From the human T2T-CHM13v2.0 reference genome, Homo sapiens: a stretch of DNA of 64,000 bases. Below are positions 42,211 through 45,026 of this stretch, piece after piece (position 1 is the first letter of the stretch; each line of letters begins with the position of its first letter). Under the pieces are notes generated by a model. That model searched no databases and was not told where the DNA came from. It worked only from the letters and a program-made list of their open reading frames with translations. The stretch lies in NCBI RefSeq assembly GCF_009914755.1, contig NC_060942.1; one strand, written 5' to 3'. Both the position numbers and the translations under genes were made by a program.

Positions 42211-42346
42211 ATTGAGAAGAAAAATGGGGAAAAATGTATGCATTCCAATTTTAGTTTTTTCTCTGTGTGAAGATGTATACCTTCTTCAGTTAAAAAAAAA
42301 AAACAACTTTCTGTGCTACCTCTATTGCCATGTCGATAACATGCAC

Positions 42347-42657
42347 TTTTATTAATTTTAATTGTAATTTTTTTGAGACAGTGTCTCACTCTGTTGCACA
42401 GGCAGGAGTACAGTGGTGCAATCACGGCTCACTGAAGTCTCAACCTGCTGGACTCAAGCGATCCTCCCATCTCAGCCTCCTGGGTAGCTGAGACCACAGG
42501 CACATGCCACTATGTCCGGCTAATTTTTGTATTTTTTGTAGAAATGGGGTTTCACCATTTTGACCAGGCTGGTCTTCAGCTCCTGGGCTCAAGTGATCCA
42601 CCCACCCCAGGCTCCCAAAGTTCTGGGATTACAGGCATGAGTCATTGCACCCACCCA
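42347..42657 (-). mobile_element. AluJ
   Basis: TSD gtcgataacat at 42332-42342 and 42658-42668. Confidence 0.93.
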
Positions 42658-43443
42658 GTCGATAACATATACAATGGAGAAAAAAGTTACTTCATAGAGA
42701 TAGTAATTGTGGTTTTCAGTGGACATCATCGCAGTAAGTAGTTTGGAATCATTCATTGCTGATTAAATTCCAATGCCTCTCAATGTCTAAGAAGGCAGTA
42801 ACTAAGCACCTTTTGGCTCCTGAGGAGAGATCATGCTCAGAATCATCCCTAGAAAATGATGAAGAGTGGTCTGCCCCAGGACAAGCTCTTCTGCGAGTCT
42901 GCAGGTAAAACCCCCATGTAAAGGCACAAACCCAGTAAATTCTCATGAAACTCTAAATAGAGAGTTTTCTAACTTAATTTTCATAGTCAAGGGGCATGTG
43001 TTAGAGAGATACAGGAAACAGACATGGTGAAAGAACATCTGAGACACTGAAGGCAGGGGGAATCTTCAAGATGGCACTGAACCTGGTGGGTGACACCCTG
43101 GTAACCTCAGAAAGGATGAGAACTGGACCCCGCCCTCACCCCACAGACACACACACAACTTCCCAATCTGGCTGAGGAAACATTCTGTGGAAATAATTCA
43201 GTGACAGCAGTATTTTGCAAAAGGCATCTGCAGAGGGCATTCATATTCAGATAAAGTCCCATCTCTAGAGTTGTACATATAAGGTGATGTGTAAAATGCT
43301 ACAAGAACTGAAAAACAATAGTAACGGAAGTTCCATGATAAACTCTATATAGCTGGGACTAAAGGCATCTGAACTTTGAAGACTTAAATTTAAATAACTC
43401 AAATAAGACACAGAACACAGTTTGTACTAAGAGATGGTAACCA

Positions 43444-43548
43444 GTGCTGGCTTTGGCCATACATATACTAAAATTGGACCTATTCAGAGAAGATTAGTAT
43501 GGTCCCTATGCAAGGATGACGCGCACATTTGTGAGTGTTCCTATTTTT
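43444..43548 (+). pseudogene. U6 snRNA pseudogene, full length (5' part of a chimera)
   Basis: gtgctggctttggccatacatatactaaaattggacctattcagagaagattagtatggtccctatgcaaggatgacgcgcacatttgtgagtgttcctattttt aligns end to end with U6; the ACAGAGA box is mutated (tcagaga). Confidence 0.95.
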
Positions 43549-43700
43549 ATGTGTGGCCAGTATCTCCATCAGTGTGCAAAGGATGTGGGTTTCATTAAGC
43601 TGGACTAAGTGATCTTCTCTGAATGGATTATCCAAGGAATCCACCCAATGAAAGCAACCATGCTAACTCTTTGTACACCAAATAAAAATTTAAAAGAAGA
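43549..43700 (+). pseudogene. 5'-truncated RPS29 processed pseudogene fragment (3' part of the U6 chimera)
   Basis: 43549-43608 translates MCGQYLHQCAKDVGFIKLD* vs RPS29 C-terminus MCRQCFRQYAKDIGFIKLD* (13/19 identical); RPS29-like 3'UTR (ggattatcc...caatgaaa...accatg...ctttgta), AATAAA at 43681-86, A-rich tail. Confidence 0.9.
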
Positions 43701-44681
43701 AAGATAGTAACTGTCCAGTTGTGGACTAGCATGAGGTAGATGTCAACCAGTGTGAGATCAACAAGTAGACCTATAACCTGTGGAACCAGGAACGGGAAAC
43801 AAAGGTCCTTTTCAGCTGTTTCCCCACCCGCATTGGACTGAGAGTTTAGCAGTACTCAAGGCAGCAGGAACAAGTAACATCAGAACAACAGGGCTATACT
43901 CACACATTTTATGTACTTCATGGTACTTATCTCTTTGGGTTTGTTATACAGTGCAGGTTAAGTTTGGTTAATCTTTTTGCTTGCCTAAGGTTGTCTCACT
44001 TTGTAATCCCCTTTCAGATATTGTGAAGGGTAAATATTGGAACAGGCACCACCCCCTCTCACTTACTCAAGGATGTCTTCCCAGCGATTCTTTCCTCCTG
44101 CCCCTTTGTCATCGGCTTTCTTGTACATAATTCTCATGAGCAAAGAGTCATTTTAAATATTTTTTCTCCCATCTGAAAATAAAGCAAAACTTACTATTTA
44201 CTCCACTTCTACCAGCTACAGCTTCATTTCTCCACTCCCATCTACAGCAAAACTCCTTTAAAAACTGTCTGAATTCACTGCCTCCAGTCTCTCTTGTCCT
44301 ATTCTCTCACTGTTCTTTATTTTTATACAAGTAAAATTCCATGTAACATAAAATTAATCATTTTAAAGTGGGTCATTCAGTAGCATTTAGTAAATTTTCA
44401 ATATTGTGCTACCGCCACATCTATCTAGTTCCAAAAACACTTTCATCACCAAAAAATAAAACTCCATGCTCATTGAAGAAGTCCTTCCCATTTTCCCAAC
44501 CTCCCAGCCTCTAATAACCACTAATCAGCTTTCTGTCTCAGTGAACTTACCTATCCTGAATATTTCATATAAATGAAATTATGCAATATGTGGCCTAGTG
44601 TGAATGCTTCTTTCATCTAGCATGTTTTCAAAATTCATCTACATTGTAGCATGTTATTAGTATTTGTTTTCCTTTTTATAG

Positions 44682-45026
<345 letters not shown>

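What the first reader, a model, noticed from the sequence alone, without database searches (positions are those of the whole stretch)
43429..43713. U6 snRNA / RPS29 mRNA chimeric retrocopy in a single insertion
Seen: a complete U6 (43444-43548) ending in its T-tract is joined with no spacer to an ATG that starts the last 19 codons of RPS29 (MCGQYLHQCAKDVGFIKLD*, 13/19 identical), then RPS29-like 3'UTR, AATAAA (43681) and an A-rich tail. The whole unit is flanked by agatggtaacca (43432-43443) and agatagtaactg (43702-43713); cca/ctg are the two CpG-decay products of ccg, so these read as one TSD. Established: U6/L1 and rarer U6/mRNA chimeras exist, attributed to template switching during L1 TPRT or to RtcB ligation of the U6 2',3'-cyclic phosphate to a 5'-OH RNA fragment. 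Inference: this is a fossil of U6 joined to a cleaved cellular mRNA and then retrotransposed. Its high divergence suggests an old event. The RPS29 part is too short for the ORF track and is easily missed when the locus is labelled only as a U6 pseudogene.
Basis: partly seen in the sequence, partly recalled or inferred. Interest (0 to 1): 0.85.

Follow-up and report, generated by a model that had tools for sequence, protein, structure and literature searches.

The report
Old U6–RPS29 chimeric retrocopy fossil
A dead copy of the U6 spliceosomal RNA is fused directly to the tail end of a spliced RPS29 ribosomal-protein mRNA and was pasted into chromosome 18 as one piece long ago; this is a real but ordinary example of a known kind of LINE-1-made chimeric pseudogene.

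Summary
43444-43548 is a full-length, decayed U6 (Rfam 75.7 bits). Against canonical U6 it has 16 substitutions in 105 aligned bases and two 1-nt deletions. From 43548/43549 to about 43691 the sequence is RPS29 mRNA nt 140/141 to the poly(A) site. It crosses the exon 2/3 junction without the 2,278-nt intron and is followed by a 10-nt A-rich remnant. The join lies inside exon 2, so it is not a splice site. A degenerate 12-bp direct repeat (9/12, all mismatches transitions) brackets the whole unit. A match that good occurs at 3.1% of random positions. Neither half has flanking repeats of its own (best 6-7/12). The halves are equally decayed: non-CpG divergence is 0.110 and 0.119. The RPS29 half carries the states of the oldest RPS29 retrocopies. 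No second U6-RPS29 junction was found in the genome. Best reading: one ancient LINE-1-type retrotransposition of a U6/RPS29 chimeric template. This class is already described (Buzdin 2003, cited in Moldovan 2019). RNA ligation and template switching cannot be told apart here, and the empty orthologous site could not be tested. Interest is low to moderate.

The parts
43432..43443 (.). 5' copy of the target-site duplication (AGATGGTAACCA). It may extend 2 nt further 5' (43430).
   Evidence: It matches 43702-43713 at 9/12, and at 10/12 when both 12-mers are shifted 2 nt to the 5' side. It abuts U6 nt 1.
43444..43548 (+). Full-length U6 snRNA retrocopy (annotated RNU6-349P): 105 nt, five T at the 3' end.
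   Evidence: Rfam RF00026, 75.7 bits, E 1.2e-18. Against canonical U6 there are 16 substitutions in 105 aligned bases and two 1-nt deletions, K2P 0.173. The -30 region upstream shows no TATA box by eye, unlike the contig 15 and contig 19 copies that do have one.
43548..43549 (+). U6/RPS29 junction. T 43548 fits both U6 nt 107 and RPS29 mRNA nt 140, giving a 1-nt ambiguity. There is no spacer and no untemplated base.
   Evidence: Alignments. The genome search places the start of RPS29 homology at window 43548.
43549..43599 (+). RPS29 exon 2-derived part: mRNA nt 141-191, codons 38-54.
   Evidence: alignment. Exon 2 spans mRNA nt 92-191, so the join lies inside the exon.
43600..43691 (+). RPS29 exon 3-derived part: codons 55-56, stop at 43606-43608, the 3'UTR and AATAAA at 43681-43686.
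   Evidence: It is contiguous with the exon 2 part, whereas the parent gene has a 2,278-nt intron there. It shares old-type 3'UTR states with the most diverged RPS29 retrocopies.
43692..43701 (+). Decayed poly(A) tail remnant (AAAAGAAGAA).
   Evidence: It begins where the parent mRNA and the other retrocopies begin their A runs.
43702..43713 (.). 3' copy of the target-site duplication (AGATAGTAACTG).
   Evidence: It is the best match in 43690-43725 to the 12-mer that ends at 43443.

Best explanation
This is one ancient, non-functional chimeric retropseudogene. A full-length U6 snRNA became joined, head to tail, to the 3' 148 nt of a spliced, polyadenylated RPS29 mRNA. The mRNA had been cut or abandoned at nt 140/141, between codons 37 and 38, inside exon 2. 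A LINE-1-type reverse transcriptase, acting in trans, primed on the RPS29 poly(A) tail at a nicked target and copied through into U6 as far as its first base. The product was integrated with a target-site duplication of about 12-14 bp.

Shown here: the identity of both parts, their direct same-orientation join, intron loss, the poly(A) signal with an A-rich tail, one repeat pair around the composite, equal decay of both halves, and an old source-gene type.

Inferred: LINE-1 was the enzyme. For the joining step I judge ligation of U6 (2',3'-cyclic phosphate end) to a 5'-OH mRNA fragment by RtcB before reverse transcription slightly more likely (about 55:45) than a template switch from the mRNA to the U6 3' end during reverse transcription. 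If U6 supplied its usual five U, the mRNA fragment began at A141, which means it was cut at a UpA step. The locus has no sign of function. The 19-codon frame differs from RPS29 at 6 of 19 residues, and no TATA box is seen in the -30 region upstream of the U6.
For: - U6 is full length with a five-T end.
- The RPS29 identity holds at protein level (all 17 listed chains are uS14/eS29, best E 0.0018). It also holds at DNA level (mRNA nt 140-288, 78.1%, E 5.8e-30; 30 other genomic matches at 73-88%).
- The parent gene was rebuilt from contig 14 with canonical splice sites, and it translates to the 56-aa protein whose C-terminus equals the PDB chains.
- The window copy crosses the exon 2/3 boundary without the intron.
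- The direct repeat brackets the composite at 9/12, against 3.1% of random positions. The best candidate repeats for U6 alone or RPS29 alone are 6-7/12.
- There is no poly(A) or spacer between the two parts.
- Non-CpG divergence is 0.110 for U6 and 0.119 for RPS29 against the consensus of 12 old-type retrocopies. Fisher p is 0.71.
- The window shares the 2-nt 3'UTR insertion carried by 12 old retrocopies, and an ATGCTA state seen in only the four most diverged ones.
- In print, genomic U6 chimeras are described as full-length U6 ending in 5-7 T, joined to a 5'-truncated partner, flanked by 6-19-bp duplications. U6 chimeras with cDNAs of cellular mRNAs exist, and U6 with a cyclic-phosphate end was ligated to a non-L1 (GFP) 5'-OH RNA in HeLa extract (Moldovan 2019, PMC6789731, passages).
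Against: - The repeat is degenerate (9/12) and only moderately unlikely by chance (3.1%).
- The A-rich tail is short: 10 nt, two of them G.
- The inferred nick site (roughly ACT/AAGA on the + strand) resembles the LINE-1 endonuclease consensus, as I recall it, only loosely.
- No orthologous empty or half-filled site could be examined, so co-arrival rests on equal decay and the single repeat pair.
- Nothing in the sequence separates ligation from template switching. The 1-nt overlap at the join fits both.
Confidence: 0.85

Rival explanations
1. Two independent insertions. Either a 5'-truncated RPS29 processed pseudogene landed exactly at the 3' end of a pre-existing U6 pseudogene, or a U6 retrocopy landed exactly at the 5' end of a pre-existing truncated RPS29 pseudogene.
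For: A U6 T-tract followed by a poly(A) tail would resemble a LINE-1 endonuclease target (established knowledge, recalled). Nested insertions are common. The flanking repeat is imperfect.
Against: There is no poly(A), LINE-1 tail or extra repeat copy between the parts. A second insertion at a T/A boundary should leave its own duplication between U6 and RPS29. The best candidate repeats for either part alone are 6-7/12, against 9-10/12 for the composite. Both halves are equally diverged.
Confidence: 0.07
2. A DNA-level fusion. A U6 pseudogene and an RPS29 processed pseudogene lay near each other, and a later deletion removed the sequence between U6 nt 107 and RPS29 nt 140.
For: Deletions are frequent in old neutral DNA, and the join has a 1-nt overlap.
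Against: The deletion would have to end exactly at the last T of U6. The outer repeat pair would then be a coincidence (3.1%). Both parts have the same orientation and the same decay.
Confidence: 0.04
3. The chimera is not neutral. It is transcribed, and either the U6-like RNA or the 19-codon open frame has a function.
For: The frame from ATG to TAA is open. Moldovan 2019 reports that 16 genomic U6/L1 pseudogenes were putative transcription templates for U6/L1 RNA-seq junction reads (passages).
Against: The U6 part has 16 substitutions and two deletions relative to canonical U6, including changes in the 5' stem (Rfam marks non-canonical pairs). The -30 region upstream shows no TATA box by eye, unlike the contig 15 and 19 genes. 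Six of 19 residues differ from RPS29, including two of the cysteine-bearing positions in MCRQC. Decay in both halves is equal to that of dead RPS29 retrocopies.
Confidence: 0.02

Closest known systems
U6/mRNA ('U/pseudogene') bipartite chimeric retrogenes of Buzdin et al. 2003. That paper is not held; I know it through its citation in Moldovan 2019, Doucet 2015 and Gogvadze 2007.
   Same: A full-length U6 forms the 5' part and a 5'-truncated, polyadenylated cellular RNA copy forms the 3' part. They are joined directly in the same orientation, and short direct repeats flank the whole. All the listed class features that could be read from sequence are met here (PMC2104539 passages).
   Different: The partner is RPS29, joined inside exon 2 at nt 140/141. 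My two full-text searches found no mention of this locus or of a U6-RPS29 chimera, but the original catalogue could not be read. This copy is much more decayed (about 15%) than the conserved copies that the published surveys concentrate on.
U6/LINE-1 chimeric pseudogenes
   Same: The architecture and presumed mechanism are the same. In this genome, two of the six sequence-perfect U6 copies (contigs 23 and 2) run from the T-tract straight into sequence I recognise from memory as LINE-1 3' regions. A third (contig 3) has an A-rich end and matching flanks.
   Different: The 3' partner here is a cellular mRNA, so the reverse transcriptase must have acted in trans. Moldovan 2019 (passage) expects such events to be rarer than those formed in cis with LINE-1 RNA.
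Ordinary RPS29 processed pseudogenes
   Same: The 3' half is a spliced, polyadenylated RPS29 cDNA of the same old source-gene type as 12 other copies.
   Different: It is the most 5'-truncated of the copies recovered, starting at mRNA nt 140. The next most truncated start at nt 85 and nt 48. It is the only one with a U6 attached: 0 of 37 other locus records, representing 30 distinct places.

Membership tests
U6/mRNA chimeric retropseudogene (bipartite chimeric retrogene) | The 5' part is a full-length copy of a small cellular RNA (U6). | tested here: met
   U6 nt 1-107 aligned at 43444-43548. The Rfam model is matched over positions 1-105 of 105.
U6/mRNA chimeric retropseudogene (bipartite chimeric retrogene) | U6 ends in its T-tract (about 4-7 T) at the join. 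| tested here: met
   Five T at 43544-43548, the last one shared with RPS29 nt 140. The range is taken from Moldovan 2019 passages.
U6/mRNA chimeric retropseudogene (bipartite chimeric retrogene) | The 3' part is a 5'-truncated copy of another polyadenylated RNA, joined directly in the same orientation. | tested here: met
   RPS29 mRNA nt 140/141-288 on the + strand, with no spacer.
U6/mRNA chimeric retropseudogene (bipartite chimeric retrogene) | The truncation point is not a fixed or special site such as a splice junction. | tested here: met
   The join falls at mRNA nt 140/141, inside exon 2 (nt 92-191).
U6/mRNA chimeric retropseudogene (bipartite chimeric retrogene) | Short direct repeats (6-19 bp) flank the whole chimera. 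| tested here: met
   A 12-bp pair at 9/12. The random control gives 621/20,000. No comparable pair exists for either part alone. The pair is degenerate, so this is met with moderate strength.
U6/mRNA chimeric retropseudogene (bipartite chimeric retrogene) | Poly(A) signal and A tail at the 3' end. | tested here: met
   AATAAA at 43681-43686, then a 10-nt A-rich remnant at 43692-43701.
U6/mRNA chimeric retropseudogene (bipartite chimeric retrogene) | Insertion at a LINE-1 endonuclease consensus site. | tested here: inconclusive
   The + strand reads ACT then AAGAGA at the likely nick. This is only a loose match to the consensus as I recall it, and the 5' limit of the repeat is blurred by the A tail.
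U6/mRNA chimeric retropseudogene (bipartite chimeric retrogene) | Both parts arrived in one event (empty orthologous site). | not testable with these tools
   No other mammalian genome is held. The flanks are single-copy in this genome, so there is no paralogous empty site either. As a proxy, non-CpG divergence is equal in the two halves, 0.110 and 0.119.
Processed (retro)pseudogene of RPS29 | Derived from spliced mRNA: exon-exon junction without the intron. | tested here: met
   43599|43600 corresponds to mRNA nt 191|192. The parent gene has a 2,278-nt intron there.
Functional U6 gene | Near-canonical U6 sequence and an upstream type-3 Pol III promoter (TATA box near -30, proximal element). 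| tested here: not met
   83.2% identity with two deletions. No TATA-like box near -30, whereas the contig 15 and contig 19 copies show one (read by eye, element names recalled).

The most novel reading that the evidence does not exclude
The join is a fossil of an RNA-level event. RPS29 mRNA was cut by an endonuclease at the UpA step between codons 37 and 38, leaving a 5'-OH. That end was ligated by RtcB to the cyclic-phosphate end of a five-U U6, tens of millions of years ago. If this is right, old U6/mRNA junctions across mammalian genomes form a record of in vivo mRNA cleavage sites and of RtcB activity on mRNAs in the germ line, and many such short mRNA tails sit unnoticed behind loci labelled only as U6 pseudogenes.
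Probability: 0.4. Interest if true: 0.4.

Novelty: new member of a known kind. Interest (0 to 1): 0.27.

Why it matters
The locus adds one well-resolved and apparently undescribed example to the small class of U6/cellular-mRNA chimeric retrocopies. The given RefSeq table lists only RNU6-349P here. Two full-text searches found no mention of the locus or of a U6-RPS29 chimera. The key catalogue, Buzdin 2003, could not be read.

The copy shows that the process also acted on an old form of the RPS29 mRNA. It illustrates that a short mRNA tail (19 codons plus the UTR) behind a U6 pseudogene can go unannotated. It also gives a precise junction (a UpA step inside an exon) that bears on the debate between ligation and template switching. 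It does not change what is known about the mechanism and has no sign of function.

Tried and rejected
- Chance resemblance to RPS29 is rejected. The match holds at protein level, at DNA level, and across the exon junction.
- A splicing-related join (trans-splicing, or U6 attacking a splice site) is rejected because the join lies inside exon 2.
- A paralogous empty site cannot be used. Both flanks (344 and 349 nt) match only themselves in the genome.
- Other U6-RPS29 chimeras were sought. U6 blastn against 37 RPS29 locus records (30 distinct places) hit none; only the window segment matched. A 120-nt query across the junction gave 15 matches: 1 is the window itself, 13 cover the U6 half only, and 1 covers the RPS29 half only. 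The tool scores only its best candidates, so these counts are lower bounds.
- Other small-RNA heads on the five 5'-truncated RPS29 retrocopies (L025, L027, L032, L033, L036) were sought. There were 0 Rfam matches at gathering score.
- Blastn between the 300-nt upstream regions of the six canonical U6 copies and the window printed no hit at E 1e-3, not even between the true genes. That test was uninformative, so the promoter statement rests on reading the sequences.
- Literature: 'RNU6-349P' gave 0 papers. 'RPS29' plus 'U6 snRNA' plus 'chimer' plus 'retro' gave 0 papers.
- Doucet 2015: none of the supplement search terms occurred (file 1 was not searched). Part 1 of 5 of Supplementary Table 2 is a species-by-species matrix of numbers with no loci. 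The supplementary data PDF cannot be read here and might list loci.
- Buzdin 2003 (PMC169886), Garcia-Perez 2007 (PMC1855177) and Buzdin 2004 (PMC11138840) are not held. Whether this locus is already catalogued there is open.

Full report
**What is there**

Window 43444-43548 (+) is a full-length U6 snRNA copy. Rfam RF00026 matches 43446-43550 over model positions 1-105 at 75.7 bits (gathering score 44), E 1.2e-18. A family search of the window's own genome returned 48 scored U6 matches. Six tied for the best score and have identical 107-nt sequences. Aligned to that canonical sequence, the window copy spans U6 nt 1-107. It has 16 substitutions (10 transitions, 6 transversions) in 105 aligned bases and two 1-nt deletions, and it keeps five T at the 3' end. 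Blastn gives 83.2% over 107 columns.

ATG at 43549 follows the T-tract directly. The frame 43549-43608 reads MCGQYLHQCAKDVGFIKLD*. With two upstream codons added to reach the tool's 20-residue minimum, phmmer against PDB chains listed 17 distinct sequences. All are ribosomal uS14/eS29 chains. The best E is 0.0018, and the match covers their last 20 residues.

**The 3' half is a spliced RPS29 cDNA**

A 153-nt query (43549-43701) found 30 other places in the genome at 73-88% identity. Three of the + strand loci show complete RPS29 processed pseudogenes. Using one of them as a query gave 45 matches. They include two exons on contig 14 (query 1-90 at 95%, query 90-190 at 94%) and the window itself (query 139-287, starting at window 43548).

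I fetched contig 14:43,780,001-43,786,000 and found the third exon by blastn. The splice sites are canonical. The joined exons (91 + 100 + 97 nt) translate to a 56-residue protein whose C-terminus equals the PDB chains.

The window aligns to mRNA nt 140-288 at 78.1% over 151 columns, E 5.8e-30. It runs across the exon 2/3 boundary (mRNA 191|192, window 43599|43600) without the parent's 2,278-nt intron. It carries AATAAA at 43681-43686. It ends in a 10-nt A-rich remnant (43692-43701) where the other retrocopies begin their A tails. Upstream of nt 140 there is no RPS29 homology, only U6.

The join lies inside exon 2 (nt 92-191), so a splice-site-mediated join is excluded. T 43548 fits both U6 nt 107 and RPS29 nt 140.

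**One event or two**

The 12-mer ending at U6 nt -1 (43432-43443, AGATGGTAACCA) recurs right after the A-rich tail (43702-43713, AGATAGTAACTG). The match is 9/12 with all three mismatches transitions. Shifting both 12-mers 2 nt to the 5' side gives 10/12.

As a control I took 20,000 random positions in the window with the same 31-offset search range. Of these, 621 (3.1%) reached 9/12 or better. Only 24 (0.12%) did so with transitions as the only mismatches, but I chose that criterion after seeing the data. The repeat is therefore supportive, not overwhelming.

The models that give each part its own duplication do worse. The best match is 6-7/12 for RPS29 alone and 6/12 for U6 alone. No poly(A), LINE-1 tail or repeat copy lies between the two parts.

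**Age, and whether the halves are coeval**

Aligning 30 distinct RPS29 retrocopies, the modern mRNA and the window shows a graded series of source-gene states. The window shares a 2-nt 3'UTR insertion with the 12 most diverged copies. It also shares an ATGCTA state with only the four most diverged ones (L035-L038). It was therefore copied from an old version of the mRNA.

Against the majority consensus of those 12 copies, the window has 18 differences in 139 bases (12.9%, K2P 0.146). The 12 copies themselves range from 5.0% to 21.3%. Divergence at non-CpG positions is 0.119 for the RPS29 half and 0.110 for the U6 half. Fisher's test on the raw counts (16/105 against 18/139) gives p 0.71. Equal decay is what one event predicts, although it would not exclude two events close in time.

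Using neutral rates that I recall (about 1-2 x 10^-9 per site per year), the insertion is several tens of millions to roughly 100 million years old. This is an inference, not a measurement.

**Is it unique**

- U6 blastn against the 37 other RPS29 locus records (30 distinct places) found no U6; the only hit was in the window segment included in the same search.
- A 120-nt query across the junction gave 15 matches: the window itself, 13 covering the U6 half only, and 1 covering the RPS29 half only.
- The five other 5'-truncated RPS29 copies carry no Rfam family at gathering score.
- Both flanks are single-copy.
- These searches score only the best candidates, so absence is not proven.

**Mechanism**

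Two things are shown: a composite cDNA of U6 plus the 3' part of a mature RPS29 mRNA, and its integration with a staggered-cut duplication and an A tail. The enzyme is inferred to be a LINE-1-type reverse transcriptase acting in trans, by target-primed reverse transcription that started on the RPS29 poly(A) tail.

For the joining step the literature offers two routes. The first is a template switch from the first template to the U6 3' end (Doucet 2015, PMC4476161, passages). The second is ligation of U6, whose major form ends in five U with a 2',3'-cyclic phosphate, to a 5'-OH RNA by RtcB before retrotransposition (Moldovan 2019, PMC6789731, passages). That paper also reports ligation of U6 to a non-L1 (GFP) RNA in HeLa extract. 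It states that the reference genome holds full-length U6 joined to cDNAs of cellular mRNAs, citing Buzdin 2003.

The window junction has five T, no untemplated base, and a break at a UpA step if all five T come from U6. It fits ligation slightly better in my judgement, but it is equally producible by a switch. I put it at about 55:45.

**Comparison with what is known**

Gogvadze et al. 2007 (PMC2104539, passage) list the features of bipartite chimeric retrogenes:
- a full-length 5' part;
- a 5'-truncated 3' part;
- random truncation sites;
- a direct join in the same orientation;
- short flanking direct repeats.

Moldovan 2019 adds 5-7 T at the join, 6-19-bp duplications and an endonuclease consensus site. 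All are met here except the endonuclease site, which matches only loosely, and co-arrival, which I could not test directly.

Law and Burns 2025 (PMC11838501; abstract; term search) catalogue LINE-1-containing chimeras and do not mention RPS29. In this genome, two of the six sequence-perfect U6 copies run from the T-tract straight into sequence I recognise from memory as LINE-1 3' regions. A third has an A-rich end and matching flanks. The contig 15 and contig 19 copies have TATA-like boxes near -30, which the window copy lacks.

**Verdict**

This is a new, apparently unannotated member of a known class, old and without sign of function. The given RefSeq table lists only RNU6-349P here. I found no paper naming the locus or a U6-RPS29 chimera, but the original catalogue (Buzdin 2003) and two related papers are not held.

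Noticed in passing
L043 (G000:C23:139435415-139435521, -) and L044 (G000:C2:175046671-175046777, -); also L040 (G000:C3:184033442-184033548, +): Three of the six sequence-perfect U6 copies are not genes but young retrocopies. In two of them the T-tract runs straight into sequence I recognise from memory as LINE-1 3' regions, which makes them U6/L1 chimeras. The third is followed by a short stretch, an A run, and a repeat of its 5' flank.
   Followed up: partly
G000:C19:42393208-42502419 (L034, L036 and two further matches): Four old RPS29-like retrocopies (76-78% to the query) lie within about 110 kb on contig 19. This suggests one old pseudogene multiplied by later segmental duplication.
   Followed up: no
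G000:C1:150235553-150236477 (-) and G000:C22:39039106-39039715 (-): These RPS29 retrocopies matched in two or three pieces, with gaps of about 300 bp at positions that are not the exon boundaries. They are probably processed pseudogenes interrupted by later insertions.
   Followed up: no
Alignment (RPS29 3'UTR): The RPS29 retrocopies form a graded series. It records stepwise changes of the source gene's 3'UTR: a 2-nt indel, a change in the base that follows the stop codon, and other positions. The series could serve as a relative clock for dating retrocopies.
   Followed up: partly
window 42373-42655 (-) and 44736-45024 (-): Paired sub-threshold matches to the 7SL/SRP RNA model (37-53 bits, gathering score 70) coincide with the masked repeats 42342-42650 and 44727-45022. 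These are Alu elements flanking the chimera at about 0.8 and 1.0 kb. The miRNA-family matches on them are below threshold.
   Followed up: no
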